This document shows, piece after piece, positions 5,426 to 38,101 of a DNA stretch of 64,000 nucleotides. The position numbers and the translations under genes were made by a program. Source of the stretch: Thermoproteota archaeon (GTDB lineage: Archaea > Korarchaeota > Korarchaeia > Korarchaeales > JAOZGB01); the NCBI GenBank assembly GCA_037917685.1, contig JAVCBU010000012.1:160001-224000 (forward strand), read 5' to 3'. Numbering within the stretch: position 1 is the stretch's first letter; the number at the start of each line of letters is the position of its first letter. The notes beneath the pieces are model-generated. The model saw nothing but the letters and a program-made list of their open reading frames with translations. It made no database searches and was not told the DNA's origin.

Positions 5426-5437
5426 CCAGCCCCACCC

Positions 5438-5914: not shown

Positions 5915-5946
5915 AGCTGGTCAAGTTGAACGTTGAGGTGTGAATT

Positions 5947-6456
5947 TTATAAGTCTATCCTCGGGAGTTTCATAGCTGAATCCTCGTCTTTGACCTCTTT
6001 AAACATATTGTAGTATTCCCTATACCTTTCATAGTCTACTCTTGATTTATCCACGAACACGGGATCCCCAAATGTTATAGCCCCCGATGGACACCGCTCT
6101 GCACACACAGGTTTACCTCCGCATAGATCACACTTTACGATTATATTAAGTTCCTCATCATACCTTATAGCCTTGAATGGGCATGCTTTGATGCATAGTT
6201 TACATAGCTTACATGTATCAGGGTTATACTTCACAACACCGTTCTCAACGCTTAGAGATCCTGTTGGGCATACCTCTACGCAGGGGGCGTCTGGACAGTT
6301 CAAGCACACAACTGGCATGCTTATACCTATATGCCACTTGTTTGCAACTTTTATTCTGGCCTTCAAAGGCTGGATCACCCTGTGTTTTATGAATGAACAT
6401 ATGGTTTCACAGATTCTACACCCGACGCAGAGTTCAGGGTTTAGAATTAGAATCAT
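5947..6456 (-). CDS. 4x[4Fe-4S] electron-transfer subunit (AorA/DmsB-like)
   Basis: CVGCRICETIC, CLNCPDAPC, CKLCKLCIKACP, KCDLC. Confidence 0.9.
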   Translation of the reverse strand: MILILNPELCVGCRICETICSFIKHRVIQPLKARIKVANKWHIGISMPVVCLNCPDAPCVEVCPTGSLSVENGVVKYNPDTCKLCKLCIKACPFKAIRYDEELNIIVKCDLCGGKPVCAERCPSGAITFGDPVFVDKSRVDYERYREYYNMFKEVKDEDSAMKLPRIDL

Positions 6457-6538
6457 ACAGGCTATTATTATGGCATTGTCAAAATATAAGGTCTCTTACG
6501 GACCTCGCTGCTATGATACCACTCTAGACCATAGCAGG

Positions 6539-6871
6539 CTAGGATTCAACGTTGGGGATTATACATATGAGAATGAAGTCAACATTTCCATCGTTTCTAT
6601 ACCAGTGGGGTACATCTGGGGGGATATATAGGTAGTATCCTTCCTCAACGTGGTACTCATTGTCACCTATCCCAACTGTTGCCTTACCCTGTAGAACGTA
6701 GATTTCATGCTCCCACGGGTGACTGTGAGGATTCATCTTTGCACCCGGCTTGAATATGAACCTCCTCATGTGATAGTTAGGACCCCTAACCAGCCATTGA
6801 ATGTATATGTTCTCCGCTTGTTTAACCTCCTCCGGCTCTACCTCATCCTGTCTCCCAACTATTTCACGCAT
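6539..6871 (-). CDS. Cupin-domain protein
   Basis: HSHPWEHEIYVLQG and YIPPDVPHWYRN cupin motifs. Confidence 0.85.
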   Translation of the reverse strand: MREIVGRQDEVEPEEVKQAENIYIQWLVRGPNYHMRRFIFKPGAKMNPHSHPWEHEIYVLQGKATVGIGDNEYHVEEGYYLYIPPDVPHWYRNDGNVDFILICIIPNVES

Positions 6872-6879
6872 AGGATATT

Positions 6880-7458
6880 TTACCAGGGTGGTCTTTTTAA
6901 GTTTGACCTAACTTGCTTGTAGGGGTAGCTTACCCCGTACTTGTCCAGGCTTACAAGCTCCTCCACCCTCCTCCTCGGCGTAGGCCTTGGTGTTTCGCCG
7001 GGGAATCCCATTGTTATTATCGCGATAGGCCTATGCTTTTCAAGGGTTGTCCCCACGGCTTCTGCTACTCTTCCATCGTCGAAGGCGCCAACCCAGCATG
7101 TTCCAAGGCCGAGGCTCGTGGCAGCAAGCATGGCAAAGGTAGCCGCTATGGTGGCGTCTTGCACCGAATATAGTTTTCTTCCTCTTTCACCATATCTCCT
7201 AGTCGACCTCCATGGGCATGCGAGGAAGACCATGGATACCGGCGCCTCATATATGAACATTTGATTATACGAAGCTCTCGCCAGTTTCAGCCTCACCTCA
7301 GGATCCTTGACGACTACAACATCGTAGGCTTGGAGATCCCCGGCTGAAGGGGCAGTGTTTAACGCTTCTATAATTTGAGATATGTAGTTTTCAGGTATAG
7401 GCTTCCGGCTGTAGCTTCTAACAGATCTCCGTACAGATATAACATCCCAGAAGTCCAC
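6880..7458 (-). CDS. Nitroreductase family protein
   Basis: RRSVRSY, APSAGDLQ, GLGTCWVGAFD. Confidence 0.9.
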   Translation of the reverse strand: MDFWDVISVRRSVRSYSRKPIPENYISQIIEALNTAPSAGDLQAYDVVVVKDPEVRLKLARASYNQMFIYEAPVSMVFLACPWRSTRRYGERGRKLYSVQDATIAATFAMLAATSLGLGTCWVGAFDDGRVAEAVGTTLEKHRPIAIITMGFPGETPRPTPRRRVEELVSLDKYGVSYPYKQVRSNLKRPPW

Positions 7459-7489
7459 ATGTAGCCTTTACACTCCCGCCTTTAAAAGC

Positions 7490-8035
7490 TTATCCTCCGT
7501 ACTGTCCCTCCCACATCTCATGGAACTCCCCGTGATATAGGTCCGCCAGCTCCCTACAGTATATAAGTACTATGTTTTCATCGTTTTCCTCTCTCGCAGC
7601 CTTTGTCCAGTTGTAGCTTCCAGTTATGACGATTTCATCATCGATTATGCAGAATTTATTATGCATAAGCGACGGGTTACTGTCCAGGCGGACTTCAATC
7701 CCATTGCTTTTGAGAATCATATACCTGCTGTACTGGTTTACATTGTTCTTCTCAAGGATTATTTTCACGTTTACGCCTCTCCTCGCAACATCTATCAGTG
7801 ACTGTGCGAGCCTGCTTGAGGTGAAGGTGTACATGGCGATTTCTATGCTATTATTAGCCCTCTCAACCCAGTATGATATCACACTCTCAACATCATCGTC
7901 GGGGCTGAAATAGGCCTGAACCCAGAGTCTGTCAGAGTATATCATGACCGGGCCTGCGGCTTCAGGTCTCACCGCGAAGTAGCAGAAGGCGAAACCTACT
8001 AGGAAGCCGAGGATAAAGGCTTGACCAAGCTTCAC
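7490..8035 (-). CDS. Membrane-anchored phospholipase D-like nuclease (single HKD, Nuc-type)
   Basis: N-terminal hydrophobic helix; HNKFCIIDD...GSYNWT...NDEN. Confidence 0.85.
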   Translation of the reverse strand: MKLGQAFILGFLVGFAFCYFAVRPEAAGPVMIYSDRLWVQAYFSPDDDVESVISYWVERANNSIEIAMYTFTSSRLAQSLIDVARRGVNVKIILEKNNVNQYSRYMILKSNGIEVRLDSNPSLMHNKFCIIDDEIVITGSYNWTKAAREENDENIVLIYCRELADLYHGEFHEMWEGQYGG

Positions 8036-8156
8036 ACCCTATCAAATAGGGGGAAACTTATTAAGCATTCAGTTGCCATCGACTAAGGGTCTATCCTTCT
8101 TAAGATGCGATACGCCAGACCCGCATTACCCATTCACCGTATTCGTAGACACCGTT

Positions 8157-8972
8157 TCATCTCCCAAACCTTCGCGATCTCCTCTGGTAATCTCTTATCG
8201 CCCTCAAAAAGTCTATTTTCCTGAAGGATGGCAGGTATGCCTCGCAGAAGTAAAGCTCGCTGTATGCTATATGCCAAAGCAGGAAGTTGCTTATCCTCTC
8301 CTCCCCAGAGGTTCTTATTATAAGGTCGGGCTCAGGGACACCGTTCAAGTACAGGTATTTCTCGAATAGCTCCTCATCTATATCCGAAGGTTTGATGGCT
8401 CCCTTCTCCACCTCTAAAGCTATCTTCCGGACGGCGTCTAATATTTCATCTCTCCCCCCATATGCGAGAGCTATATTCACCGTTTTAGGCTTATTCCTCA
8501 TGGTTTCACGCTCAAGCTTCTCAGCTAAAGCCTTAACGTCATCAGGCAACAGCTCCCTCCTCCCTATAATCCTTATTCTAACACCCCTACGTTTAAACTC
8601 GCCCGTTTTTGACAGAGCATGTTTAAGTTCCTCTCTAATCCTGTTCATCACGACCTCAACCTGCTCCCTTGGCCTGTTAAAATTCTCAGTTGAAAAAGAG
8701 TATAATGTCACATGTTCCACCCCCAGCTCCTCACACCATGAGAGGATCTTCTCAACCTTCCTAGCCCCAAGATAATAGCTCTCCTCAAGCGAAAGCCCCG
8801 CAGCCGATGCAAACCTCCTATTCCCATCAAGAATAAGAGCAACATGCCTCGGTATAGGGCCAGACCTCACAATTCTAAGCAGATAACTCTCATAGAAAGG
8901 CATCTGAACCCTACTGGCAAGCCTATAAGCCACAGACAGCAAGAAACCGTAAGCCCGCCCCAGAACCCCCAT
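8157..8972 (-). CDS. uppS: cis-prenyltransferase (UppS-type polyprenyl diphosphate synthase)
   Basis: PRHVALILDGNRR, FSTENFNRP, YGGRDEI, DLIIRTSGEERISNFLLW; start uncertain (8972 ATG or 8993). Confidence 0.93.
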   Translation of the reverse strand: MGVLGRAYGFLLSVAYRLASRVQMPFYESYLLRIVRSGPIPRHVALILDGNRRFASAAGLSLEESYYLGARKVEKILSWCEELGVEHVTLYSFSTENFNRPREQVEVVMNRIREELKHALSKTGEFKRRGVRIRIIGRRELLPDDVKALAEKLERETMRNKPKTVNIALAYGGRDEILDAVRKIALEVEKGAIKPSDIDEELFEKYLYLNGVPEPDLIIRTSGEERISNFLLWHIAYSELYFCEAYLPSFRKIDFLRAIRDYQRRSRRFGR

Positions 8973-10790: not shown

Positions 10791-11585
10791 TTGGGGTGGG
10801 CTAGGTCTTATACTCCGCAGGATGCTGCTGAGGCATGCGAGGTAATATCTGAGGCTTTGGATAGGAGGCTTGTGTTCTGTATTGTGGGGCTTTCGCAGGT
10901 GAGGTATGAGGGTAGGGCTGAGTCAACGCTTGACGTTGGGGATAGGATTATTATTGGAAAGCCTGACGGTTCGTTTCTTGTCCATAGGCCTATGGGGTAT
11001 TCGCCTGTTAACTGGCAGCCTCCGGGTGGCTTTTTCAAGGTTTGGGTTGAGAAGGATAGGCTTATACTCGAGGCTTTTAGGAGGAAGCCGTACGAGAGGG
11101 TTACTGTGAATTTTGAGGTTGTCTATGTGATTTTAACCATGAAGCTGGAGGATAAGGCCCGTTTCCATGTTTCCCTGGTTGAGGAGGAGATGCGGAAAGC
11201 TATTCTTAGAGCCCCAGACCTGGTTGAACCTGGTTTTAAGCCTATGGCTGAGGAGAAGCATATTGAGTCAGGCTTTATAGATGTCTATGGGTATGATAGG
11301 TCTGGTACGCCTGTTGTTGTAGAGATTAAGGCTAGAAAAGCCGGTGTTGACGCTGTGAACCAGCTTAAACGCTACATTGACGAGATTAGGTCTATGAAGG
11401 GATATGTTAGGGGTATTCTAGCTGCCCCCAGTATTACCTCTGATGCGCTATCTCTTTTAAAGAGTTATGGATTAGAATATAAGAAGCTAACACCCAAGAT
11501 GTGTACAAGGGTGCTGCAGGCTAGGCAGGCAAGGCTTGGAGAGTTCGTTGAGAGTGAAGGTGATGAAGGATTATCCGATGATTGA
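10791..11585 (+). CDS. nucS: Mismatch endonuclease NucS/EndoMS
   Basis: YEGRAESTL..GDRIII.KPDGSFLVH, PVNWQPPG, GFIDVYG.D...VVVEIK, DAVNQLKRY, C-terminal PIP-like QARLGEF; real start likely TTG near 10791, not 10638. Confidence 0.93.
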   Translation: MGWARSYTPQDAAEACEVISEALDRRLVFCIVGLSQVRYEGRAESTLDVGDRIIIGKPDGSFLVHRPMGYSPVNWQPPGGFFKVWVEKDRLILEAFRRKPYERVTVNFEVVYVILTMKLEDKARFHVSLVEEEMRKAILRAPDLVEPGFKPMAEEKHIESGFIDVYGYDRSGTPVVVEIKARKAGVDAVNQLKRYIDEIRSMKGYVRGILAAPSITSDALSLLKSYGLEYKKLTPKMCTRVLQARQARLGEFVESEGDEGLSDD

Positions 11586-13869
11586 ATATGTTAGAATCAG
11601 AAATTTTAAGTCGTTTAGGAATGCCACGGTAAGGTTTAAGCCGGGGTATACGGCTATTACTGGCCCTAACGGGTCGGGGAAATCAAATATATTTGATGCT
11701 ATCTGCTTCACCCTCGGCATAGGTACTTTGAAGATGCTTAGAGCTGGGAGGCTTACGCACTTGGTTAGGAGAGGGGCTGATAAAGCGGAGGTTGAAGTAT
11801 CGATAAACCATTCTGGGAGGGTTCTCAGAGTTTATAGGAGGATTAATCCAAAGGGGGGCAGCGTTTACAAGCTTAACGGTAGAAGGATTAGTCTGAAAGA
11901 ACTTGAAGTTGAGCTTTCCAAGATTGGGATTCGAAAGTATGGGTATAATGTTGTATCACAGGGTGATATTACACTTATCATTGAAATGACTCCCAGGGAG
12001 CGGAGGCAGATCCTTGACGAGATCAGCGGGATTGCAGAGTTTGAGCAGAGAGAGAAGGAGATAATGTCTGAGCTTCAAAGGGTTAATGAGAAGCTCCGGG
12101 AGGCCGAGGCCATCCTGGGGGAGAGGAAGAAGAGAATAGAAGATTTAAAGACGCAGGTTGAAAGGCTAAAGGAGTACGTTGAAGCTGAAAGAATGTTAAG
12201 GGCTGCAGAGGCCGCATTGATGAGGGGTGAGATAGAAAAGCTTGAGGAGAGGATTAGAAACCTCAAAGTTGAGGAGCCGGACTTTGACGACTCCGCCCTT
12301 CGAAGCGTAGAGGAGAAACTTGCAAGAGCCGAAAGCAGAGTTCGAATGTTGGAGTCAAATCCCCTGCTCCGAAAGGCTTTTGAGGTTTCAGCTTTGGCTT
12401 TAGAGATTGAGAAGAAGAGGAGGCAGCTTTCAAAACTGTTGGAGAAGATAGAGATGTACGGTGGGTACTCTAGGCTTCCAAAGAGGGTAGTAGGTTCAGA
12501 CGGGTATATAGGCGTTGTTGGAGATATACTGAAACCGAAGACTGGATACGAGATTCCTTATACTGCAAGCCTTTGGGGTAGGCTTCGGGACATAGTGATT
12601 TCAACCTATGAACAAGCCGTTAAACTTGCAAATGCACTCTCTTCGTCTGGTAAGCGTTGGAGAATAATCCCACTGGACATTTTAAACGAGAAAGGAAGGG
12701 AGGACCCTCCGGAGTGGTCGTTAGGCTGCATGGCTGACTACGTGGAGTATGATGAAAGGTTTAAGTCCCTGGTTAACTTTTTGCTCGGTGGCACAGTCCT
12801 TGTAGAGAGGATTGGAGACGTCCCAAAGAGTTATGTGGGTAGTTGGAGGTTCGTGTCATTGGATGGTGTAGTGCTGGAGAGGAGTGGGATTCTAACCTGC
12901 GGGAAGGTTGGGAGGGAGGCTTTAGACAGAGCGGAATATGCGAATTTGATAGGGAAGGTTGAGGAGTTGAAATCAGAGATCAAAGATCTCGAAGGAAAAG
13001 TGGAGGGATATGATCCGGATGCTGCGAAATCCGTCCAGGACGAGTTGTATAGGATGAAAGGGATGGTTAAACAGCTTAGGGACAGGAGGGACCGGCTTAT
13101 CAGACTTAAGCTTGAGGCTGCGGAGAGAATAAGGCGTGCTGCATCGGAGATGGGTATGCTTAAAGCTAGAGTTGAAAGTTTAAAGGAGAGGCTTGCCCAG
13201 ATGGGTGATGTCCCAGAAATAGATCCATCAGAAGCTTTTGGGCTCGCTGAAAGAATGAAGCTTAAAATTAGACTTCTTTCACCTGTAAATCATAGGGCTG
13301 AGGAGGAGTATAAGGAAGCACTTGAGGAGTACGATAAAATTAACTTGCGTGTCAAGCTGGTTAGGGAGGAGAGGAATAAAATAATGGAAGCTCTTGAGGA
13401 GGTGAGAAGGGAGAGGAGAAGGGTCCTACAGGAAACATTAGATAGGCTTTCGAGGGAGTTTAACAGGGTATTTAAGGATTTAACTGGTGGGGAGGGTTTC
13501 CTTGAAGTCGACGACATTGAAGACCCGGGGTCCGGGCTTGAGATTAAAGTTAATCTCCCAGGCAAGAGGATGGCTACTATAGACCAGCTTTCCGGGGGTG
13601 AAAAGTCAATATCAGCACTAGCATTCATAGTTGCTATTCAGAAGCTTAGGCCAGCCCCGTTTTACCTTTTTGATGAGGCAGATCTTATGCTTGACCCGAG
13701 AAATGCTAGAAAATATGTTGAAATGCTCAGGAAGATGGGGAAGGAATGCCAGGTTATAGCTATATCTCTTAAGAGGGAAACCGTGGAGCCTGCAGATCAC
13801 ATAATAGGAGTTACGATGAGAGATGGCGTCTCTAAGATAGTAGCAGTTGACATGGGTGAGGAACCATGA
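11578..13869 (+). CDS. smc: Chromosome segregation protein Smc, unusually short-armed (~763 aa)
   Basis: NFKSF, Walker A GPNGSGKS, Q-loop VSQGDI, hinge (GYIGVVGDIL...IIPLD...VSLDGVVLERSGILTCG), PVN..A, signature LSGGEKS, Walker B FYLFDEAD; ATG 11578 overlaps the nucS stop. Confidence 0.92.
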   Translation: MIEYVRIRNFKSFRNATVRFKPGYTAITGPNGSGKSNIFDAICFTLGIGTLKMLRAGRLTHLVRRGADKAEVEVSINHSGRVLRVYRRINPKGGSVYKLNGRRISLKELEVELSKIGIRKYGYNVVSQGDITLIIEMTPRERRQILDEISGIAEFEQREKEIMSELQRVNEKLREAEAILGERKKRIEDLKTQVERLKEYVEAERMLRAAEAALMRGEIEKLEERIRNLKVEEPDFDDSALRSVEEKLARAESRVRMLESNPLLRKAFEVSALALEIEKKRRQLSKLLEKIEMYGGYSRLPKRVVGSDGYIGVVGDILKPKTGYEIPYTASLWGRLRDIVISTYEQAVKLANALSSSGKRWRIIPLDILNEKGREDPPEWSLGCMADYVEYDERFKSLVNFLLGGTVLVERIGDVPKSYVGSWRFVSLDGVVLERSGILTCGKVGREALDRAEYANLIGKVEELKSEIKDLEGKVEGYDPDAAKSVQDELYRMKGMVKQLRDRRDRLIRLKLEAAERIRRAASEMGMLKARVESLKERLAQMGDVPEIDPSEAFGLAERMKLKIRLLSPVNHRAEEEYKEALEEYDKINLRVKLVREERNKIMEALEEVRRERRRVLQETLDRLSREFNRVFKDLTGGEGFLEVDDIEDPGSGLEIKVNLPGKRMATIDQLSGGEKSISALAFIVAIQKLRPAPFYLFDEADLMLDPRNARKYVEMLRKMGKECQVIAISLKRETVEPADHIIGVTMRDGVSKIVAVDMGEEP

Positions 13870-14405
13870 GCTTACAGGATAAGATCAGGTTTATCCTTGA
13901 GAGGTTTAGAGAGACGCTTGACATAGCCTGGGCAGGTAGAGAGTTATTATCCATAGCGAGAATCGTGAGAAAACATGCGGAAGAGATACTGTCCCGGAAG
14001 ACCGAGGTGAAAAGAAACAGGCAGAGAATAAGAGTCGACAGAGAGTTAAAGTATGATTTGCAACCAAAGCGTGCAAGGATACCTGCCCGGAAGCCAGGAT
14101 CTGAGCAGCTTGAGAAGAGTGTAAAATGGGTGATCGCAAGGCTCTCCATAAGAAGGGCGTTAGAGGAGAGAATATTGTTGGAGGCTAAAGATTTGTACAG
14201 GGATATAGAGAGAAGCTACAGGTTTATTATAAAACTACTGTCAAAGTTCGGGGTAAAAAGAATAGAGTTTTCAAAGATCGCGAAAACAAGAAGTGAGAGA
14301 GCAACATTACTCATATCAATACTCCACCTCCATGCAGATGGGAGAATAGACGTACACCAGGACAAGCTTTATGGTGAGATAATTCTTGAACTACGAAAAG
14401 GTTGA
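13866..14405 (+). CDS. scpA: Kleisin ScpA (minimal, 179 aa)
   Basis: LERFRETLDIAWAGRELLSIARIVRKHAEEIL matches the kleisin N-terminal helix; LLISILHLHADGRIDVHQDKLYGEIIL matches the C-terminal winged helix; lies between smc and scpB. Confidence 0.8.
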   Translation: MSLQDKIRFILERFRETLDIAWAGRELLSIARIVRKHAEEILSRKTEVKRNRQRIRVDRELKYDLQPKRARIPARKPGSEQLEKSVKWVIARLSIRRALEERILLEAKDLYRDIERSYRFIIKLLSKFGVKRIEFSKIAKTRSERATLLISILHLHADGRIDVHQDKLYGEIILELRKG

Positions 14406-14883
14406 AAGGCTCGTTGAGGCTGCATTATTCATAGCGGGGAGACCTCTTAGCAAAGAAGAAATATCAAAACTAACTGGAGTCGAAGAGACTGATGTAGAAG
14501 AAATAGTGGAGAGGCTGAATCAGAGATATAGGGAGCTTTCATTTCACATAGTTAAATCTTGGAACGGGTGGGAGATGAGGCTAAAGCCTGAGTATGAGGA
14601 GAAAGTTGGGGAGGCAGCCTTGAAGGTTGAACTAACGACAGGAGAGCTTAGAACACTGGCAGCAATTATAGAACTTCAACCAGTAACCCTCTCTTACCTC
14701 GCAAAGGTAAGAGGAAGCAGAGCATATCTTGACGTGAAGAAGCTTAAGAAAATGGGACTGGTGAGAACCCAAAAGGGTGAGGGTAGGAGCCCAATAGTTA
14801 AAACAACAAAGGTTGTAAAATCATACTTCAACATTGTGGAGCGGAAACCCAAAAAAGAGGGGGAAGCAAAACCTCCCGTATAG
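14386..14883 (+). CDS. scpB: Kite subunit ScpB
   Basis: VEAALFIAGRPLS..EI, ELRTLAAIIELQPVT...LAKVRG, GRSP...TT. Confidence 0.9.
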   Translation: MNYEKVERLVEAALFIAGRPLSKEEISKLTGVEETDVEEIVERLNQRYRELSFHIVKSWNGWEMRLKPEYEEKVGEAALKVELTTGELRTLAAIIELQPVTLSYLAKVRGSRAYLDVKKLKKMGLVRTQKGEGRSPIVKTTKVVKSYFNIVERKPKKEGEAKPPV

Positions 14884-31343: not shown

Positions 31344-32708
31344 ATGGATGTAGTACTGTACGATGGTGTCTCCACTGTAGGCGGATGTAAATTCATGGTC
31401 CGAACGAGACAGACATCAATATTCCTAGATTTTGGAAGAAACTATTCCAGAGAATCGTCGTACTTCCTAGAGCCGATAATGAGTGCACGAGACTACAAGA
31501 TACTGATAGATCTGGGTATAATCCCTGAGGTTGAAGGATTGTACAAGGGGGCTGAACAGAGACCGTCGGTTGACGGTATTTTTATAAGCCATGCACACTC
31601 AGATCATTACGGCTATATTAGATATATCAAAGACGATATTCCCGTATACCTTGGAGAGACCGCGTTGAATCTTATAATGGCGAGAGAGGCGGCTTCACAC
31701 CCACCTAGGGCTGAATACGCAATTTCCCGATTTACAAATGGGAAAGTTATGCCCTTAAAGAATTTTAAGGGTTTTAGAACAGGTTCCCAACTTAAAGTAG
31801 GTGACTTAACCGTAAAGCCGGTCCATGTTGACCATTCCGTTCCCGGATCCTACGGCTTTATCATCGACGACGGAGAGTCCACATTGGTTTATACAGGTGA
31901 TTTCAGGCTTCATGGGGCTGTGTCAGACTTGACGTTGGATTTTATAAGGGAAGCCGCAAGATCCAAGCCCGATCTGATGTTGGTTGAATCGACACATATC
32001 ACGGAATGTAAGCTTGGAAGTGAGCACGAGGTAAGATCGAAGCTGGGTAAAATATTTGAAAGCACTAAGGGTTTAGTTGCAGTAGGTATCGGCGAGCTTG
32101 ATTTAGATCGGTTAAAATCAATATTCAAATCTGCGTCAAAAACTGGTAGGGAACTAGTGATCCCGCTTAGAACAGCTTTTATAATCAATGTTGTATCTTC
32201 GGATCCCAAGTTGAGAATGCCACATATGGAGGATGTTAAAGTATATGTTAAGGAGAAGAGAAGGTACCGTCAGTTTGAAAAGTTTCTCCTGGGCGAACTT
32301 GAAGATAAGGGATTAGAACCTGTCTCAACAGAGTATATCAGTAAGAACCAGAAGTCAACCGTTATGGTAGCGAACTATTACCATATGGAAGAACTTGCGA
32401 GAATTAAACCTATGAGTGGTAGCGTATACATACTTTCGTCCACGGAACCATTTAATGAGGAAAGTGAAATGAGATATGAGAGACTTCAGGAATGGTTAAG
32501 GTTCCTTGGGCTTCCGATGTACCTGTTACACGCTTCAGGACATGCTGATGCTTTAGACATAAGGTACTTAGTTGAAAGCGTGAAGCCAAGAGCTGTGGTT
32601 CCGGTTCATACCGAGGATGGCGGGGTATTTCGGAAATTTGTTAATATCGAAGGGATTCAAGTTAGATGTGTGAAGGAGGGAGAAACTATCTCTACACTAA
32701 GTATGTGA
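31344..32708 (+). CDS. Metallo-beta-lactamase / beta-CASP ribonuclease (RNase J-like)
   Basis: LDFG, SHAHSDH, VDHSVPG, YTGDFRLHG, HASGHA, PVHTE. Confidence 0.85.
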   Translation: MDVVLYDGVSTVGGCKFMVRTRQTSIFLDFGRNYSRESSYFLEPIMSARDYKILIDLGIIPEVEGLYKGAEQRPSVDGIFISHAHSDHYGYIRYIKDDIPVYLGETALNLIMAREAASHPPRAEYAISRFTNGKVMPLKNFKGFRTGSQLKVGDLTVKPVHVDHSVPGSYGFIIDDGESTLVYTGDFRLHGAVSDLTLDFIREAARSKPDLMLVESTHITECKLGSEHEVRSKLGKIFESTKGLVAVGIGELDLDRLKSIFKSASKTGRELVIPLRTAFIINVVSSDPKLRMPHMEDVKVYVKEKRRYRQFEKFLLGELEDKGLEPVSTEYISKNQKSTVMVANYYHMEELARIKPMSGSVYILSSTEPFNEESEMRYERLQEWLRFLGLPMYLLHASGHADALDIRYLVESVKPRAVVPVHTEDGGVFRKFVNIEGIQVRCVKEGETISTLSM

Positions 32709-33201
32709 ATGGTACGTGTTTCTCCCCTTTAGACACCCATTTCGTCATTAAGTATGCGTCTTCTCCGTCCATGTAGTATTTCGAGATTCTCTTTGTTATT
32801 TCAAAACCCATCTTCTCGTACAGGTTGATCGCCGGCTTATTTGAAACCCGTACCTCGAGGTAAAAGCCGTCAACCTTGTCTGCAAGGTTTTTTATTACCC
32901 CTTTAATTAGGGCGGTACCGACGCCTTTCCTCCTGTATCTCTCGTCTACAGCGATGGAGACTATATGTGCCCATTTTATCTTCTTGAAAAGGCTATAAGA
33001 GACTTCTAGCCTACACATAATATACCCTATCACTTTGTCCTCGACTATGGCAACTAGAAACCCATCTGGACAATTGTTGTATAGGCTTCTAAAGAAATAT
33101 TCAGGGTAGTTCTCCGGTAAGAATACTTTGTTTATCCTCCTAACTGCGTCTAGGTCTTCTAATCTAAACTTTCTAATCGTGAATAGCTTCCCCTCCCCCA
33201 T
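32692..33201 (-). CDS. ard1: N-terminal acetyltransferase (Ard1/RimI family)
   Basis: LPENYP, HIVSIAV..RRKGVG, LEVRVSN..AI.LY, YYMDGEDA. Confidence 0.9.
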   Translation of the reverse strand: MGEGKLFTIRKFRLEDLDAVRRINKVFLPENYPEYFFRSLYNNCPDGFLVAIVEDKVIGYIMCRLEVSYSLFKKIKWAHIVSIAVDERYRRKGVGTALIKGVIKNLADKVDGFYLEVRVSNKPAINLYEKMGFEITKRISKYYMDGEDAYLMTKWVSKGEKHVPFTYLV

Positions 33202-33565
33202 CTCCTTCCTCCTTCTCTAAGGTGAGGGCTACTCCTGTAGCTATGGTTTTAGCCTCTAAAAGCCCCCCCTCTACTCTTCCAATAGGAGACATAGGAAATG
33301 ATGGGTTCATATCTGTTAGTGCTACTATTAGTGCTCTAGACATAGGAGAATATGCTACATGGCCCTCCGGAAGTTTTTTGGCCTCTTTCTCTAAGCCGAT
33401 TTCCAGGTCTACCGGAACTTGAAGGAATTTACTTGTTTTTATGGCCATAGTTTTGATGGGTGTCAGCCTAAGAAGTCTTGACACTGTTAAGGGTGATGAT
33501 GCCTTATCTAACTTTACGATTATCTTCTTCCCTGTAGCATCTACTATTTTTATCCTTCCACACAT
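33173..33565 (-). CDS. Cyclophilin-like fold protein
   Basis: SPLTV..L...P, GLEK, G.VAY.P, P..PIG.V pattern. Confidence 0.6.
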   Translation of the reverse strand: MCGRIKIVDATGKKIIVKLDKASSPLTVSRLLRLTPIKTMAIKTSKFLQVPVDLEIGLEKEAKKLPEGHVAYSPMSRALIVALTDMNPSFPMSPIGRVEGGLLEAKTIATGVALTLEKEEGDGGGEAIHD

Positions 33566-33583
33566 TGTGATCCCCTGATCCTT

Positions 33584-33808
33584 TCAGCTTATCCTACAGT
33601 ATATTTTCTGCTTTGAGTCTCCCATAACAAATTTGATCTTGCCTTCCCGCTCCATGAGTCTTAGGATGATTTTAGCAAGGCTAACCTTGATACCGTGTCT
33701 TGAAGCTATTTCTGAGGGTGTTATTACTTTAGCTTTCTCAAGATCTTTTTTAATTTTTTCAAGGAACTCTTTGTCAACTCTTGCTTCTATATAACTCCAA
33801 TCCATCAT
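33584..33808 (-). CDS. rps25e: 30S ribosomal protein S25e
   Basis: KVITPSEIASRHGIKVSLAKIILR.MEREGKI...KIY winged-helix signature; lacks the basic N-terminal tail. Confidence 0.85.
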   Translation of the reverse strand: MMDWSYIEARVDKEFLEKIKKDLEKAKVITPSEIASRHGIKVSLAKIILRLMEREGKIKFVMGDSKQKIYCRIS

Positions 33809-34743
33809 TACATCCCTAGCTGCTTCCTTAGCTCCATGAGTTGTCTCTCTATTTCTTTAAATCTTTCCTTATACTCCATCTCTATCATTTTTTTCTTTCT
33901 TTGAAGCAGCTTAATCTTTGCAGCTGCTATTATCTTATCTATATTTGAAATATCCTCCCTTATCATTGATAATATCTTGTCTTTAAGTGTATCGCAAATA
34001 TAGCCTTTCTCCTTGTCCTCGCTAACTTTAGAAGAAATGCTTAAAAGCTGGTTTTTAAGGTTGTCAAGATATGAAATCTCTGCTTCGGTCAGTTCTGGCA
34101 TCTCAAACACCCCAGGTTCAATGGATGGGGATACTAAGGGTTTTGTCTCCAGTTTCGGGGCCTCCCCAGGTTTGAACTCTTCTTCTAAGGGTTTGGAAGT
34201 CGGTATTTCAAGAGGTAGGCGTTCCTCTGGTGGTTTTTCCGGGAGGGGACGAGGCTCTTCTGGTGGTTTTTCCGGGAGGGGACGAGGCTCTTCTGGTGGT
34301 TTTTCTTCCATTGCTGGTTTTTCTGCGGCTCTCAGAGCCATTTCAAGCCTTTTCTCAAGATCTTGGACATCGGTGGTAGGGGGTTTTGTTTTTTCTTCTA
34401 TTTTTTCCCTAATCCAGAATGGGAGTTCTTCCTCCTCCTCTTTCTCAGGTTCCTCCTGGGGTGGCAATGCGGACACCTCAAAACTTTCCACTGGCTTAGG
34501 AGGTGGAGCCTCCTCTACTTTCCCGGACGGCTTAGGTAAGGCCTCTTCCAGTCCGGGGATTTCGAAAGATTCAGGTTGTTTTCTACCTTTAATAAGTACT
34601 ACTATAACTGTAGAAGCGAGGGCAATTATTATTACAGTGAGTAGAAATATTTCAGGCACATTTAATGGTGGAGGGAGTACGCTTACTAACCTATTTAGGA
34701 ATTGTAATATGTTTGATATAAACCGTGGGAGGTATCCGTACAA
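33808..34743 (-). CDS. Membrane-anchored protein with Pro/Glu-rich linker and C-terminal coiled coil
   Basis: One TM helix (IFLLTVIIIALASTVIVVLI), long P/E/K-rich region, heptad-rich C-terminus. Confidence 0.7.
   Translation of the reverse strand: MYGYLPRFISNILQFLNRLVSVLPPPLNVPEIFLLTVIIIALASTVIVVLIKGRKQPESFEIPGLEEALPKPSGKVEEAPPPKPVESFEVSALPPQEEPEKEEEEELPFWIREKIEEKTKPPTTDVQDLEKRLEMALRAAEKPAMEEKPPEEPRPLPEKPPEEPRPLPEKPPEERLPLEIPTSKPLEEEFKPGEAPKLETKPLVSPSIEPGVFEMPELTEAEISYLDNLKNQLLSISSKVSEDKEKGYICDTLKDKILSMIREDISNIDKIIAAAKIKLLQRKKKMIEMEYKERFKEIERQLMELRKQLGM
34226..34305. repeat. 33-bp in-frame tandem repeat x2.4 (encodes EKPPEEPRPLP)
   Basis: tctggtggtttttccgggaggggacgaggctct at 34226 and 34259, partial copy at 34292. 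Confidence 0.9.
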
Positions 34744-34746
34744 GTT

Positions 34747-35487
34747 TTATCCCTCAAGACTTAGATTGACTATTCGAACTAATAAAGCTATCGTAAGATC
34801 CCCGTAGAGCAAGGATAAAATTAGACCGAATGTTAGGAATACTATAAAGGGTATGCCTGGGGTAACCCATACATAGTCATTTTCAAAGTTTTCCTTTCTT
34901 TCGATGTAAGATTCGATCTTTGGGAGGAAAACAAACTTTCTAGCACCATTCAACTTTTTCTCCATAATCGCATGAAACCTTATTGTTCCGACTTTAGAGG
35001 GTTTAACAGGCCTCCCGATAAGAACAGCGATAATTTTTCTATGGAAGGGCTCGTCAAATCCATGAAATATCGGTTTTCCCTTTATAATTAAGGATGAATT
35101 GTGGATTAGGTTGAAAATTGGAAGGGAAAGAGATAAGATATTAGCGTTTATGAAAACTGTTAAAGGAAAAGAAACTAACACTGGATTCCTAGTCGGAAAG
35201 GGGGGGTATGGTAATAGTAAGGAGAGCGACAGTAGGGCTTTAATGTCTGCACCCCCATAGAGGCCTAGAAACCATAAGATTCCTGATAAAATAAGAGTAG
35301 GTAAGATAGCCATTGCGGCGAAGATGTAAGTTTCGTATTTAAACGTTTCATATGCTGTCATTAAAACTCCGCTGGAGATCATAGCTATCCAGATTCTGTT
35401 GTCAATCATTCTAGTTTTATAGTCTTGAATTGAAGCAGCGGAGAGTCCGATAAATGAGATGAGAACTTTAAATAGGCCTGTTCTCAT
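34747..35487 (-). CDS. pibD: Prepilin/prearchaellin peptidase (A24, FlaK/PibD)
   Basis: QDYKTRMI and GGADIK catalytic aspartates; C-terminal VWVTPGIPF. Confidence 0.88.
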   Translation of the reverse strand: MRTGLFKVLISFIGLSAASIQDYKTRMIDNRIWIAMISSGVLMTAYETFKYETYIFAAMAILPTLILSGILWFLGLYGGADIKALLSLSLLLPYPPFPTRNPVLVSFPLTVFINANILSLSLPIFNLIHNSSLIIKGKPIFHGFDEPFHRKIIAVLIGRPVKPSKVGTIRFHAIMEKKLNGARKFVFLPKIESYIERKENFENDYVWVTPGIPFIVFLTFGLILSLLYGDLTIALLVRIVNLSLEG

Positions 35488-36625
35488 TTATGGCACCTCT
35501 TAGTCTCATATTAATTTCACGTTGAATCCTCTCAAACTCTGCCTTGATCGTCTCTAATTCGTTCTTGACACTATCTCTCCTCTCTTCTAGGGTTCTGACT
35601 TCGTTGATAAGGTTTGAAAGCTCGGATAGTAATTTCTGCTTCCTGGAATTGAGATCTTTTACTTCTTTCGCTAATTCTTCCTTGTTTTCTCTTAATTTCT
35701 CAGTTTCTTTTTCAAGCCTTCTTTTTTCTTTTTCGTAATTTTTAATCTCCATAGATTTAGCCGTAATCATTTTCTCTTTTTCTGATAATTCTAACTCTTT
35801 AGATTTGAGTTTATCAGCTCTTTCCACTATATCTTTAACCACCCTGCTTAACTGCCCTGTTTCCCTCTCTAGTATGTCGATGAATGATTTAAGTTTGGAT
35901 ACAAGTTCATCCTGCCTTTTCACGGCTGTCAAATACCTTTCAAACCTATCTCCGATTGTTCTAAACATGTTTGAAGCAGAGCTTGAAGCTATATTTATGT
36001 CTTCTACAAGTTTTCCTATCCTCTCTGTGAGCAGGTTCAGTTCTTTTGACGTTGTAGTTTTCTCCGATTTTAGTTCATCGAGTTCTATTTTAAGTCTCTC
36101 TACTTCAGCTGCTAGTTTAGACCTCTCCTCTGAGAGCTGGGATATATTGCTTCTTAGGATTTTAAGTGTTTCCTCTGAGGACTGGATATCTGACCGCAGA
36201 GATTTAAGATTTCTTTCTAGTGTCCGCTTTTCCTTCTTGAGAGCGAGAATTGACTTGTTGTAGGTGTCAACAGTCTCGGATAGCCTTTCCTTATCCTCCT
36301 GCAATATTGAAACCTGGTTCTTGAGCTTTTCAAGCTGTACGTCGAGTTTCTTATACTCTCTCTCCAGTTCCCCTTTCTTAGTTTTAAGCTCGGATGTTTG
36401 TTTTTTAAGGGTGGAAAGCTCTTTCCTCGTTCTTTCCACTTCTTTATTAAGACTTTTTAGTTTCGCATCCGCTTCATCTATCCGACTTAGGAGTTCATCC
36501 CTTTTTCGCCTTAGCATGTCTATGTCCTCGATTATCTTCGATTTAACCAAGGAGGCTGTTTCTTTAAGCTCTTTGAGAGACTCTTCAGCCAGTCTTCTAA
36601 TATTGTTGAGGTCAGAGGATGCCAA
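35468..36625 (-). CDS. Long all-coiled-coil protein (~385 aa)
   Basis: Continuous heptads, no ATPase motifs; TTG start at 36625 with GGTGA RBS (track extension to 36853 overlaps a divergent gene). Confidence 0.75.
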   Translation of the reverse strand: MASSDLNNIRRLAEESLKELKETASLVKSKIIEDIDMLRRKRDELLSRIDEADAKLKSLNKEVERTRKELSTLKKQTSELKTKKGELEREYKKLDVQLEKLKNQVSILQEDKERLSETVDTYNKSILALKKEKRTLERNLKSLRSDIQSSEETLKILRSNISQLSEERSKLAAEVERLKIELDELKSEKTTTSKELNLLTERIGKLVEDINIASSSASNMFRTIGDRFERYLTAVKRQDELVSKLKSFIDILERETGQLSRVVKDIVERADKLKSKELELSEKEKMITAKSMEIKNYEKEKRRLEKETEKLRENKEELAKEVKDLNSRKQKLLSELSNLINEVRTLEERRDSVKNELETIKAEFERIQREINMRLRGAINENRPI

Positions 36626-36680
36626 GATAGTCTCACCGGAGTTATATTTGAAAACTTTACCCTCCCCAATTATAAATAAT

Positions 36681-37418
36681 ATGCCCTGGAAGTTAGGTAA
36701 AATTACTAGGAAAATATTAAGTTTGAGAGAGAAGGTTTCAATTGGGCTTATCGACCCGCTTAACGTTAGACTCAAACCCGTTATTAACAGCCTTATAGAG
36801 GTAACTAGGAGTGCAAGGTTAGATGACTTAAGACATGTTGGTCTAACTATCAACGGTGTCTCTGAGATTCTCCTTGAAAAGGTAAAATCTGGTGTAAGAA
36901 AGGCTAAAATTGCCCCCTACCCAGACCCTTTAAGATTTATCGGCATGATAGACATAAATGATCTAGTAGAATGTTTGAAATCGAATTGGAGACCTATCCT
37001 CTCCATCTCGGGCGTTGTTTCAGTTGACGTTCTGTACACTATGGTTATGTCCTTTTTTGACAAACCGGATAGGTTTGGCGAGAATTTGAAAACCATATTT
37101 CCAGGTGTTTTCAGAGGATACGAAGTTTACGAAAGACTTTCGGACGAGATTGAGAGGTTTAAGACTGAAACTTTAAGTAAAATCTCGGAGAAAGGCTACG
37201 CCGATCTCATGGATATTGTGGTTGTGGGGTCCTGGGAGGAAACTGTTAGAAGGGCTGCGTTAGTCAATTTTCTGCTGGACTCTGGAGATCTGCAACTTGT
37301 AAAGAGGGGGGATAAAGCCGTCCTTGTCCTTGGGAAGCGGTATAGAGATAAAAAGGACTCATGGGCTAGAGTATGGGTTGTAAGAAGGAAGCATAACAGG
37401 ATTGAAATAGTGGTATAA
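36681..37418 (+). CDS. Putative kleisin-like (ScpA/Nse4-related) protein, 245 aa
   Basis: ATG 36681; GLIDPLNVRL...DLRHVGLTINGVSEILLEK resembles the kleisin N-domain; DIVVVGSWEETVRRAALVNFLLDSGDLQL resembles the kleisin C-terminal winged helix. Confidence 0.55.
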   Translation: MPWKLGKITRKILSLREKVSIGLIDPLNVRLKPVINSLIEVTRSARLDDLRHVGLTINGVSEILLEKVKSGVRKAKIAPYPDPLRFIGMIDINDLVECLKSNWRPILSISGVVSVDVLYTMVMSFFDKPDRFGENLKTIFPGVFRGYEVYERLSDEIERFKTETLSKISEKGYADLMDIVVVGSWEETVRRAALVNFLLDSGDLQLVKRGDKAVLVLGKRYRDKKDSWARVWVVRRKHNRIEIVV

Positions 37419-37483: not shown

Positions 37484-38101
37484 ATGGCTTCTGAAGCTCC
37501 ATTTCATGTTTTCACAATAGATGATGAGAGAATTGAGATATTAGCTAAAGAACTCTCTAACGAGACAGGGAGAAAGATATTGGTTGAGCTTTCGACAGGT
37601 TCGAAGACTGCTAGTGAACTTGCAAGAAAACTTTCCCTCCCGATGCCTACTGTCCTTTTCCACATTGAAAGGCTTGTTCAGGCAGGGCTAATAGAAGTCG
37701 AAGCTGTCAGAGCTGGAAGCAGAGGACGTGTCAAGATCTATACGTCTTCACCTAAAGCCATACTATTAATTACAAGTAGAGGAGAGCCCAGAGAGGTTTT
37801 AAAAAAAGTTTATGACCATTTTATTAGGTCATTCGATAGGCTTTTGAGAATGCCAGTGTTAGCCACCACTCTACTACTGGTGGCATTAACTTTGTTTGCA
37901 GGGTTCTCTCGTTATGCAAATTTACAGGTTTACCCGGAGAAGGTTGCAGCTCCTGAAAAATATGGTGGCGAAAGGGATTTATCTCAGGTATCAGCCCAAC
38001 AAGCTGGGTACGGTTTGTTGGAGATTGCTGGAGCATGCATAATTTCCATGCTAGCTACGCTCTTAGCTGTAAAGATAGCTGTGAGAAGGGCGAATTTCTA
38101 G
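37484..38101 (+). CDS. ArsR-family HTH regulator with two C-terminal TM helices
   Basis: LSNETGRKIL..L...KTASELARKL......V.FHIERL..AGLI; two hydrophobic helices. Confidence 0.8.
   Translation: MASEAPFHVFTIDDERIEILAKELSNETGRKILVELSTGSKTASELARKLSLPMPTVLFHIERLVQAGLIEVEAVRAGSRGRVKIYTSSPKAILLITSRGEPREVLKKVYDHFIRSFDRLLRMPVLATTLLLVALTLFAGFSRYANLQVYPEKVAAPEKYGGERDLSQVSAQQAGYGLLEIAGACIISMLATLLAVKIAVRRANF

What the first reader, a model, noticed from the sequence alone, without database searches (positions are those of the whole stretch)
35468..37418. Second, orphan kleisin-like gene head-to-head with a headless coiled-coil gene
Seen: a 245-aa protein with IDP-type N-terminal helices and a C-terminal winged-helix-like segment, sharing a 55-bp divergent promoter with the 385-aa coiled coil. 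Known: TACK/Asgard archaea encode SMC5/6- or ClsN-related ATPases besides Smc. Inference: this is the kleisin of such a second SMC-like complex, or an alternative kleisin for the mini-Smc 23 kb away. The free coiled coil is about as long as the arm sequence missing from the mini-Smc, which may be coincidence.
Basis: inference. Interest (0 to 1): 0.7.

Follow-up and report, generated by a model that had tools for sequence, protein, structure and literature searches.

The report
Stray Nse4-like kleisin gene, archaeal
This archaeal gene encodes the linker subunit (kleisin) of a second, Smc5/6-like chromosome-maintenance complex of a kind already described in archaea; here it sits apart from its partner genes, next to an unrelated coiled-coil gene.

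Summary
Both ORFs are real. A 245-aa protein is encoded at 36681-37418 (+) and a 385-aa coiled-coil protein at 35468-36625 (-). A 55-bp spacer separates them and is conserved in two relatives.

The 245-aa protein has no Pfam or NCBIfam hit. A 19-sequence family profile matches the yeast Nse4 C-terminal domain (E 8e-7). Its predicted fold is N-terminal helices, a floppy linker and a C-terminal winged helix closest to ScpA-C (Z 9.6).

In 14 of 14 other genomes where both genes were found, the homologue lies directly downstream of a short SMC-like ATPase, usually followed by an Nse1/3-like kite. This genome holds both partners on another contig: a 633-aa ATPase and a 169-aa kite.

A complex prediction places kleisin residues 27-79 on the ATPase neck (score 0.64, best control 0.00).

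The alternative, a spare kleisin for the mini-Smc, is not: that Smc has its own kleisin and ScpB.

The coiled-coil neighbour shows no similarity to SMC arms and heads a gene string with an A24 peptidase. Its link to the kleisin is open.

The complex type is published (van Hooff et al., bioRxiv 2025). This is a new, dispersed member.

The parts
36681..37418 (+). Gene for a 245-aa Nse4-like kleisin (P0001)
   Evidence: ORF confirmed. The family profile A2 matches Nse4 at E 8e-7. Fold evidence is, Atlas neighbours, and Ka/Ks of about 0.12.
36681..36911 (+). N-terminal helical domain, residues 1-77, with the conserved (I/L)DP(L/F) motif at residues 24-27; predicted SMC-neck-binding part
   Evidence: AF2 gives helices at 2-20, 32-42 and 47-77 with pLDDT 76-90. 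The predicted interface covers residues 27-79. There is a weak profile match to ScpA-N, 6ivh, at E 0.021.
36912..37130 (+). Central region, residues 78-150, with the invariant W103-x-P105 motif; low-confidence, presumed flexible linker and kite-binding stretch (inferred)
   Evidence: pLDDT is below 50 for residues 100-150. W103 and P105 are invariant in 19 of 19 rows of A2. Kite binding was not tested.
37131..37340 (+). C-terminal winged-helix domain, residues 151-220; presumed SMC-cap-binding part
   Evidence: VIA-align rank 1 is 4i99_C (ScpA C-WHD on the Smc head), Z 9.6, rmsd 2.5 A, 67 of 70 residues aligned.
36626..36680 (.). 55-bp divergent spacer with two conserved TATA-like boxes (TTATATTT at about 36640-36647 for the + gene; ATTATAAAT at about 36668-36676, read on the - strand, for the - gene) and a GGTGA Shine-Dalgarno-like motif before the TTG start
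   Evidence: Sequence and the three-way alignment. The promoter roles are inferred from position only, with no transcript data.
35468..36625 (-). Gene for a 385-aa lineage-specific coiled-coil protein (P0002); a conserved divergent neighbour, whose functional link to the kleisin is not shown
   Evidence: ORF; heptad scan. Only generic coiled-coil family hits below cut-offs, or cut-offs reached only nominally. No relative found elsewhere. The same arrangement is present in L020 and L021.

Best explanation
The 245-aa protein is the kleisin subunit of this archaeon's second SMC complex, the Smc5/6-related one. By analogy with all kleisins, its mechanism would be as follows.
- The N-terminal helices join the head-proximal coiled coil (neck) of one copy of a short, hinge-less 633-aa SMC-like ATPase, encoded on another contig at G000:C6:78365-80266.
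- The C-terminal winged helix sits on the cap of the second ATPase head.
- The flexible middle carries a dimer of the 169-aa Nse1/3-like kite (G000:C6:273743-274252).
- Together these close an ATP-driven DNA-holding ring.

Shown here: homology to the Nse4-like kleisin family, the two-domain fold, presence of all three subunits in the genome, and operon linkage in relatives. Predicted only: the neck contact. Inferred: cap binding, kite binding, DNA entrapment and the cellular role, which is probably DNA repair or maintenance.

In this lineage the gene has left the ancestral SMC-kleisin-kite operon. It is now transcribed from a compact, conserved divergent promoter shared with a lineage-specific coiled-coil gene.
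For: 1. Family. The 4-row profile A1 finds relatives in 8 other genomes among the 61 searched (9 with G000; E 3e-11 to 2e-4). The 19-row profile A2 finds them in 21 of 61 genomes, G000 included.

2. Nse4 likeness.
- A2 against all PDB sequences: the top hits are yeast Nse4 (7ymd_A and 7tve_G at E 8e-7, 7qcd_F at 2.6e-6) and human EID3 (7e-4).
- Lower down come ScpA-N (6ivh, 0.021) and ScpA-C (5xns_C, 0.61), each at the matching end of the protein.
- Pfam Nse4_C gives sub-threshold hits in 4 of the 9 relatives scanned (E 0.036 to 7.7e-5).
- ESM Atlas with P0001 alone: nearest clusters are archaeal 233-250-aa proteins (0.95-0.97). One of them (0.95) has Nse4_C on 18% of members. A eukaryotic Nse4 cluster scores 0.88.

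3. Fold. N-terminal helices, a disordered middle and a C-terminal winged helix.
- VIA-align rank 1 of 48,161 chains is ScpA C-WHD 4i99_C (Z 9.6, rmsd 2.5 A, 67 aligned). Scc1-C chains 6qpq_D (Z 8.5) and 1w1w_E (Z 8.3) follow.
- The Foldseek top ten holds Nse4 (7tve_G, 7qcd_F), ScpA-C (4i99_C/D) and chains of cohesin and condensin entries.

4. Context in relatives.
- In 8 of 8 distant loci the homologue follows an SMC-like head ORF. In 6 of 8 a roughly 190-aa kite follows it.
- In 14 of 14 other genomes where both genes were found, the kleisin lies within 1 kb downstream on the same strand.

5. Same genome.
- The SMC-like ATPase is 38% identical (E 1e-137) to the ATPase of the clustered system in G039.
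- The kite is 37% identical (E 1e-37) to the G039 kite.
- P0001 is 25% identical (E 6e-9) to the G039 kleisin.
- In a tree of 20 kleisins, the P0001 clade groups with P0007 and the G038/G039 short-system kleisins (100/99 support).

6. Complex prediction of ATPase plus kleisin.
- Score 0.64 (runs 0.68, 0.64, 0.42); best of 3 controls 0.00.
- The mark was reached by 116 of 157 solved complexes and by 2 of 215 mismatched pairs. My own alignments were used, so these counts hold only roughly.
- The runs agree in at least 0% of contacts. Partner pLDDT is at least 62.
- The interface is kleisin 27-79 against ATPase 166-202 and 450-485, i.e. the neck.
Against: - P0001 has no Pfam or NCBIfam hit. The narrow profile A1 finds no kleisin in the PDB.
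- No Foldseek match reaches E 0.001. The VIA Z-scores are middling, and the N-terminal helices match unrelated helical bundles equally well (Z 8-9.4).
- The structure model is only moderately confident (pLDDT 67, pTM 0.40).
- The complex pass may reflect likeness to solved kleisin-neck complexes, and the three runs do not share contacts.
- The gene is not next to any SMC gene in this genome. It lies on contig C1, while the ATPase and kite lie on C6, about 195 kb apart from each other.
- The kite profile matches MAGE/Nse3 and NSE1 structures only weakly (E 0.06-0.34).
- No expression or binding data exist.
Confidence: 0.8

Rival explanations
1. The protein is a spare or alternative kleisin for the canonical mini-Smc encoded 23 kb upstream (window 11536-13869). 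It would swap with that Smc's own kleisin.
For: Both are kleisin-like, and the mini-Smc lies on the same contig. Kleisin-neck contacts are structurally similar across SMC classes, so cross-binding is not excluded.
Against: - The mini-Smc is followed, with overlapping stops and starts, by its own 179-aa kleisin (weak Rad21_Rec8 C-terminal hit) and by ScpB (E 7e-29).
- That kleisin aligns to the A2 profile only over 46 columns of the winged helix (hhalign E 0.083).
- Relatives of P0001 follow the short, hinge-less ATPase in 14 of 14 genomes.
- All three proteins of the short system are present in this genome.
Confidence: 0.06
2. After leaving the SMC operon, the kleisin has been re-used. It now works with the divergently transcribed 385-aa coiled-coil protein, with or without the SMC-like ATPase. 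It might act as an adaptor linking the complex to another structure, or in a new SMC-independent role.
For: - The head-to-head pair is kept in all three contexts available: the window, L020 and L021.
- The 55-bp spacer is far better conserved than the synonymous sites of the flanking genes.
- This genome is the only one of 15 with both genes in which the kleisin is not next to the ATPase.
Against: - The three contexts are close kin, so shared gene order may be simple inheritance.
- The coiled-coil gene overlaps the next gene, an A24 FlaK-like peptidase. It heads a tightly packed minus-strand string, which points to another function.
- The kleisin keeps both SMC-binding domains under purifying selection.
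- No test of binding between the two proteins was run.
Confidence: 0.1
3. The ORF is not a real gene. It would be an open frame produced by the low stop-codon content opposite or beside a coiled-coil gene.
For: The frame stays open for 417 nt upstream of the ATG, over the antisense strand of the coiled-coil gene.
Against: - The 245 codons lie outside the coiled-coil gene.
- Homologues of 242-256 aa exist at 54-74% identity.
- Ka/Ks is about 0.12.
- The Atlas neighbours and the family profile are specific.
Confidence: 0.01

Closest known systems
Archaeal 'SMC5/6-related' complexes of TACK and Asgard archaea: SMC, Nse4-related kleisin and Nse1/3-like kite (van Hooff, Raas, Tromer and Eme, bioRxiv 10.1101/2024.01.07.573240; I read the abstract and sections 8 and 14, plus passages found for hinge and co-localisation)
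   Same: The same three subunit types are present, alongside a canonical Smc-kleisin-ScpB set in the same genome. The kleisin family profile is closest to Nse4. The kite profile's best PDB matches, though weak, are MAGE/Nse3 and NSE1.
   Different: The paper describes each complex as one operon encoding all three subunits. Here the three genes are dispersed, with the kleisin on contig C1 and the ATPase and kite about 195 kb apart on C6. The ATPase is only 633 aa and has no Pfam hinge hit. The main text I searched has no occurrence of 'shorter' or 'helicase' and mentions 'hinge' only in general terms.
Eukaryotic Nse4 (delta-kleisin) of Smc5/6; structures 7ymd, 7tve and 7qcd
   Same: The C-terminal winged helix aligns at E 8e-7 to the family profile. 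The overall layout is the same: N-terminal helices, linker, C-terminal winged helix.
   Different: Nse4 is about 400 aa and bridges an Smc5/Smc6 heterodimer carrying Nse1-Nse3 (RING and MAGE proteins). Here the protein is 245 aa, the partner is presumably a homodimer, and the kite is a single 169-aa protein. P0001 itself does not reach any Pfam Nse4 threshold.
ScpA of prokaryotic Smc-ScpAB; structures 4i99, 5xns and 6ivh
   Same: The C-terminal domain gives the best structural match (Z 9.6). There are weak profile matches at both ends. The size is similar.
   Different: There is no Pfam ScpA hit. The window's ScpAB-type genes are elsewhere (13866-14883). Relatives of P0001 are linked to a hinge-less short ATPase and an Nse1/3-like kite, not to ScpB.
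ClsN (coalescin) and other archaea-specific SMC-related proteins (ASRP) (Yoshinaga et al. 2022, PMC9389158; passages read)
   Same: These are also a second SMC-superfamily ATPase with short arms in archaea.
   Different: According to the paper, ASRPs carry a zinc hook in the vast majority of sequences. The partner ATPase here has no CxxC motif between its heads (read). It scores 95.7 bits against an ASRP cut-off of 300. The passages I read on ClsN and ASRP do not mention a kleisin ('ScpA' occurs 0 times).

Membership tests
Kleisin superfamily (ScpA / Nse4 / Rad21 / CAP-H) | N-terminal helical domain that packs against the SMC neck coiled coil | tested here: met
   AF2 gives helices at 2-77 with pLDDT 76-90. 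In the predicted complex, residues 27-79 lie on ATPase 166-202 and 450-485. The score is 0.64 against a best control of 0.00, a mark reached by 116 of 157 solved complexes and 2 of 215 mismatched pairs. The runs share at least 0% of contacts and partner pLDDT is at least 62. This is a prediction only and may reflect likeness to solved complexes.
Kleisin superfamily (ScpA / Nse4 / Rad21 / CAP-H) | C-terminal winged-helix domain of the kind that binds the SMC head cap | tested here: met
   Model residues 152-218 align with 4i99_C (ScpA C-WHD): Z 9.6, rmsd 2.5 A, 67 of 70 residues. This is rank 1 of 48,161 chains. Scc1-C chains give Z 8.3-8.5. The profile match to Nse4-C is E 8e-7. Cap binding itself was not tested.
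Kleisin superfamily (ScpA / Nse4 / Rad21 / CAP-H) | Flexible central region that binds the kite (or hawk) subunits | not tested
   Residues 100-150 have pLDDT below 50, which is consistent with a linker. A 169-aa kite exists in the genome. No kleisin-kite prediction was run.
Kleisin superfamily (ScpA / Nse4 / Rad21 / CAP-H) | Gene linked to an SMC ATPase gene (usual in prokaryotes) | tested here: not met
   In this genome the nearest partner ATPase is on another contig. In 14 of 14 other genomes with both genes, the homologue lies within 1 kb downstream of the ATPase gene. Linkage is usual for prokaryotic kleisins but does not define the protein family.
Nse4-related archaeal kleisins (SMC5/6-related complex) | Sequence similarity to Nse4 rather than to ScpA | tested here: met
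   The A2 profile matches Nse4 at E 8e-7 and EID3 at 7e-4, against ScpA at 0.021 and 0.61. Atlas neighbours include Nse4_C-bearing clusters. No phylogeny including eukaryotic Nse4 and ScpA was made here.
Nse4-related archaeal kleisins (SMC5/6-related complex) | Pfam Nse4_C (PF08743) at its gathering score | tested here: not met
   P0001 has no hit at E up to 1. Relatives reach 14.8-23.3 bits against a cut-off of 26.
Nse4-related archaeal kleisins (SMC5/6-related complex) | Presence of a second SMC ATPase and an Nse1/3-like kite in the same genome | tested here: met
   The ATPase is at G000:C6:78365-80266 (633 aa; SMC_N E 2.7e-43; best PDB hits are Smc heads at E 2.5e-43). The kite is at G000:C6:273743-274252. 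The kite's likeness to Nse1/3 is weak (E 0.06-0.34).
ScpA (PF02616) of Smc-ScpAB | Pfam or NCBIfam ScpA model hit, and position in an smc-scpA-scpB operon | tested here: not met
   P0001 has no hit. The smc-kleisin-scpB operon of the window is at 11536-14883.
ClsN / ASRP partner system | Partner ATPase with a zinc hook and an ASRP model score | tested here: not met
   The 633-aa ATPase has no CxxC motif between its heads (sequence). Its ASRP score is 95.7 bits against a cut-off of 300.

The most novel reading that the evidence does not exclude
In this lineage the Smc5/6-like kleisin has been uncoupled from its ATPase and kite genes. It sits under a strongly conserved 55-bp bidirectional promoter shared with a lineage-specific 385-aa coiled-coil protein. 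That protein could be a new accessory subunit. For example, it might extend, tether or regulate the short, hinge-less SMC-like complex, in a role comparable to the lineage-specific extras of eukaryotic Smc5/6.
Probability: 0.1. Interest if true: 0.55.

Novelty: new member of a known kind. Interest (0 to 1): 0.3.

Why it matters
The finding adds a very divergent, Pfam-invisible branch to the archaeal Nse4-like kleisins. It shows that this genome has a complete second SMC complex of the type thought to be ancestral to eukaryotic Smc5/6, even though no operon reveals it. Surveys that rely on operon context or on Pfam would score this genome as lacking the kleisin.

The dispersed layout and the conserved divergent promoter give a small, testable case of how an SMC operon breaks up. 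The short, hinge-less partner ATPase is a natural minimal SMC. The kind of complex itself is already published, so the gain is incremental.

Tried and rejected
- Narrow profile A1 (4 close homologues) against the PDB: only chance-level hits such as FliG at E 0.24.
- First AF2 model with 4 rows: too poor to use (pLDDT 55).
- The search for related loci in genome contigs: 334 pattern matches, none confirmed.
- The search for homologous proteins with the coiled coil: nothing at E 1e-5 among 7,999 scored candidates, and not even the protein itself was returned. The word search is therefore uninformative for this repetitive query.
- ESM Atlas for the coiled coil: best score 0.85 with no family, which is chance level.
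- Coiled coil as a relic of SMC arms. Blastp and phmmer against 3,241 ORFs of at least 80 aa from the genome found only the protein itself at E 0.01. NCBIfam hits to SMC, Rad50 and many other coiled-coil models are all far below their cut-offs. Idea rejected.
- Orthologues of the coiled coil in 60 relatives: only weak hits (E 6e-10 or worse, 25-33% identity over parts) in 8 genomes, none beside a kleisin that I examined.
- A link between the downstream ArsR-type gene and the wHTH fused to the long kleisin of G038: only generic similarity (34% over 58 aa).
- The sigma-70 promoter scan is not applicable to an archaeon and was not used.
- Earlier-findings look-ups by place and by sequence returned nothing.
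Full report
**Observation**

The window holds a 245-aa ORF at 36681-37418 (+) and a 385-aa ORF at 35468-36625 (-), separated by 55 bp.

Both reading frames stay open well into the partner gene (36264..37418 and 35468..36853). This is a side effect of the low stop-codon content opposite a Glu/Lys/Leu-rich gene.

The starts used here are backed by homologues. P0005 and P0006 begin at the same Met as P0001. The coiled-coil start position is TTG, GTG and GTG in the window, L020 and L021. The public record of the protein (P0003, 231 aa) starts 14 residues later.

Both genes evolve under purifying selection. Ka/Ks is about 0.12-0.13 for the kleisin and 0.065 for the coiled coil. Synonymous sites are near saturation, so the values are rough.

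**What the 245-aa protein is**

It has no Pfam or NCBIfam hit. Only three close homologues turned up among 5.8 billion proteins, apart from its own record.

A profile of these four sequences (A1) found weak relatives in two searches:
- in 8 other genomes among the 61 searched;
- 11 proteins at E up to 0.001 in the 1.84-billion-protein representative library.

Aligned together (A2, 19 rows), the family shares three features:
- an N-terminal DP(F/L) motif;
- an invariant W-x-P in the middle;
- a C-terminal 'ET..RA.L.SFL...G' helix.

Against all PDB sequences, the A2 profile hits yeast Nse4 (E 8e-7) and human EID3 (7e-4) with its C-terminal third. Weaker hits to ScpA-N (0.021) and ScpA-C (0.61) fall at the matching ends of the protein.

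Pfam Nse4_C appears below threshold in 4 of the 9 relatives scanned.

The ESM Atlas, given P0001 alone, returns archaeal clusters at 0.95-0.97. One of them has Nse4_C on 18% of its members. A eukaryotic Nse4 cluster scores 0.88.

AlphaFold2 with A2 gives helices at 2-77, an ill-defined stretch at 100-150 and a winged helix at 151-220 (mean pLDDT 67).

Foldseek finds nothing at E 0.001. Its top ten nevertheless includes Nse4 chains 7tve_G and 7qcd_F, ScpA-C chains 4i99_C/D, and chains C of cohesin and condensin entries. That those chains C are the kleisins is my recollection, not a tool result.

VIA-align over 48,161 chains ranks ScpA-C 4i99_C first (Z 9.6, rmsd 2.5 A, 67 aligned). Scc1-C chains follow at Z 8.3-8.5. 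The N-terminal helices match unrelated helical bundles equally well, so they carry no information.

**Context in relatives**

In 8 of 8 distant loci the homologue follows the C-terminal head of an SMC-like ATPase. In 7 loci it follows directly, and in one a 125-aa ORF lies between.

What follows the kleisin differs:
- in 6 of 8 loci, a roughly 190-aa protein follows;
- in the other 2 (G038, G039), a KaiC-like ATPase follows (Pfam E 4e-52), and the kite lies 1.7 kb further on.

With the wider profile A2, 21 of 61 genomes have the kleisin. Seventeen of 61 have a close relative of the ATPase at E 1e-30.

The overlap between the two sets is as follows:
- Fifteen genomes have both genes. In 14 of them the kleisin lies within 1 kb downstream on the same strand. 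The window's genome is the single exception.
- Six genomes have the kleisin without an ATPase hit at that strict threshold. For two of them (G027, G029) the loci show an adjacent SMC-like ORF. The other four were not examined.
- Two genomes have the ATPase without a kleisin hit. They are 66% and 71% complete.

The roughly 190-aa proteins align as one family (A3). Their best PDB matches are a MAGE-domain protein (7dg2_C, 0.059) and NSE1 (0.078, 0.094, 0.34). These are weak, but they make up 4 of the 6 rows returned.

**The same genome holds the partners**

A 633-aa SMC-like ATPase lies at G000:C6:78365-80266. Its features are:
- SMC_N at E 2.7e-43 and no Pfam hinge hit;
- Smc heads as the best PDB hits;
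- no CxxC motif between the heads (read);
- an ASRP score far below the cut-off.

A 169-aa kite lies at C6:273743-274252.

These two proteins are 38% and 37% identical to the ATPase and kite of the clustered system in G039. P0001 is 25% identical to that system's kleisin.

A maximum-likelihood tree of 20 kleisins used all 19 rows of A2 plus residues 101-384 of the long G038 kleisin, with nothing left out. It places the P0001 clade with P0007 and the G038/G039 short-system kleisins at 100/99 support.

The genome has only one kleisin, one kite and one ATPase of this type. The same-genus genome G001 also has the ATPase standing alone in the same neighbourhood.

**Predicted contact**

The complex prediction used the ATPase (alignment A4) and the kleisin (alignment A2).
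- Scores were 0.68, 0.64 and 0.42 (median 0.64). The best of 3 controls scored 0.00.
- The mark was reached by 116 of 157 solved complexes and by 2 of 215 mismatched pairs. These counts hold only roughly, because my own alignments were used.
- The runs agree in at least 0% of their contacts. Partner pLDDT is at least 62.
- The interface in the best run is kleisin 27-79 against ATPase 166-202 and 450-485.

This interface is the head-proximal coiled coil, the classical kleisin-N site. Similar complexes are solved, so the pass shows likeness and does not prove binding.

**The rival partner**

The mini-Smc at 11536-13869 (777 aa; SMC_N plus hinge) is followed by its own 179-aa kleisin and by ScpB. 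That kleisin matches the A2 profile only over the winged helix (E 0.083). I therefore rate an alternative-kleisin role as unlikely, though the pair was not scored.

**The coiled-coil neighbour**

P0002 is 16% Glu, 14% Leu and 14% Lys. It has an unbroken heptad register over about residues 29-203, a break at 204-238, and a second coiled coil.

Family hits are generic coiled-coil matches. It matches no other ORF of the genome, and no clear orthologue was found in 60 relatives.

Its gene overlaps the next one, an A24 FlaK-like peptidase, and heads a compact minus-strand string.

The pair and its spacer are nevertheless conserved in L020 and L021. The spacer holds two TATA-like boxes, each placed to serve one gene. 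This reading is inferred from position, and whether it means shared regulation is open.

**Comparison with the literature**

van Hooff et al. (bioRxiv 10.1101/2024.01.07.573240; abstract, sections 8 and 14, and passages read) report that many TACK and Asgard archaea carry two complete SMC complexes. One of these is SMC5/6-related, with an Nse4-related kleisin and an Nse1/3-like kite, and each complex is encoded as an operon.

Yoshinaga and Inagaki (PMC8665677, passages) treat kleisin phylogeny.

Yoshinaga et al. 2022 (PMC9389158, passages) define ASRP/ClsN by a zinc hook, which the partner ATPase here lacks.

Earlier notes of this scan describe several such operons with hinge-less ATPases and an Lhr neighbour. 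I used them as leads only, and saw the same features in my own loci.

**Verdict**

This is a real gene and a divergent member of a published kind of complex. What is unusual is its dispersed position and its conserved pairing with a lineage-specific coiled-coil gene.

Noticed in passing
window 11536-14883 (+): A canonical second SMC set is present. It comprises a 777-aa Smc with a hinge (SMC_hinge E 4e-15), an overlapping 179-aa kleisin (weak Rad21_Rec8 C-terminal hit, E 0.0015) and ScpB (E 7e-29). NucS and a DNA methylase lie just upstream.
   Followed up: partly
G000:C6:78365-80266 (L018:6366-8267): The partner SMC-like ATPase is only 633 aa. It has no Pfam hinge hit and no CxxC zinc hook. 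The same holds for the two other short relatives scanned, and the 931-aa one also lacks a hinge hit. How such a protein dimerises away from the heads is unclear.
   Followed up: partly
L010:7157-10048, L011:10125-11999, L012:3980-6853, L013:9809-12001: An Lhr-like DEXH helicase lies within about 1-4 kb of the SMC-kleisin-kite cluster in 4 of 4 loci fetched with enough flank. Its best NCBIfam models are PRK13767 and the ligase-associated DEXH helicase, both below their cut-offs. In the window's genome a homologue lies 8 kb from the kite gene.
   Followed up: partly
L022 (G038:C41:71000-82000), 4407-8853 (-): G038 and G039 hold a second, long version of the system. It has a 931-aa SMC, a 384-aa kleisin with an N-terminal MarR/ArsR-type winged-helix fusion (Nse4_C E 7.7e-5) and a 173-aa kite. 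The window's genome has no counterpart.
   Followed up: partly
L013:7564-8370 (G039) and L007/L009: In the short system of G038 and G039, a KaiC-like ATPase gene (Pfam E 4e-52) overlaps the end of the kleisin gene, in the position where the other loci have the kite. Its 67%-identical counterpart in the window's genome is on contig C18.
   Followed up: no
window 37484-38101 (+): An ArsR-type HTH protein (HTH_20, E 8.5e-12) with a hydrophobic C-terminal part lies 66 nt downstream of the kleisin gene on the same strand. It is kept in L020. Its similarity to the wHTH of the long G038 kleisin is only generic.
   Followed up: partly
window 32692-36625 (-): A tightly packed minus-strand string follows the coiled-coil gene:
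- an A24 FlaK-like peptidase, overlapping the coiled-coil gene by 20 nt;
- a 311-aa protein with an N-terminal hydrophobic segment, Pro/Glu-rich repeats (EKPPEEPRPLP) and a C-terminal coiled coil, with no family hit;
- two small ORFs;
- a 169-aa ORF that I did not scan.
The same order is found in L020.
   Followed up: no
window 36264-36853: Both genes of the divergent pair have frames that stay open far past their starts, over the partner's coding strand. The result is a 384-aa and a 461-aa ORF in mechanical ORF lists, and a likely source of mis-called starts. The public record P0003 is 14 aa shorter than its homologues.
   Followed up: yes
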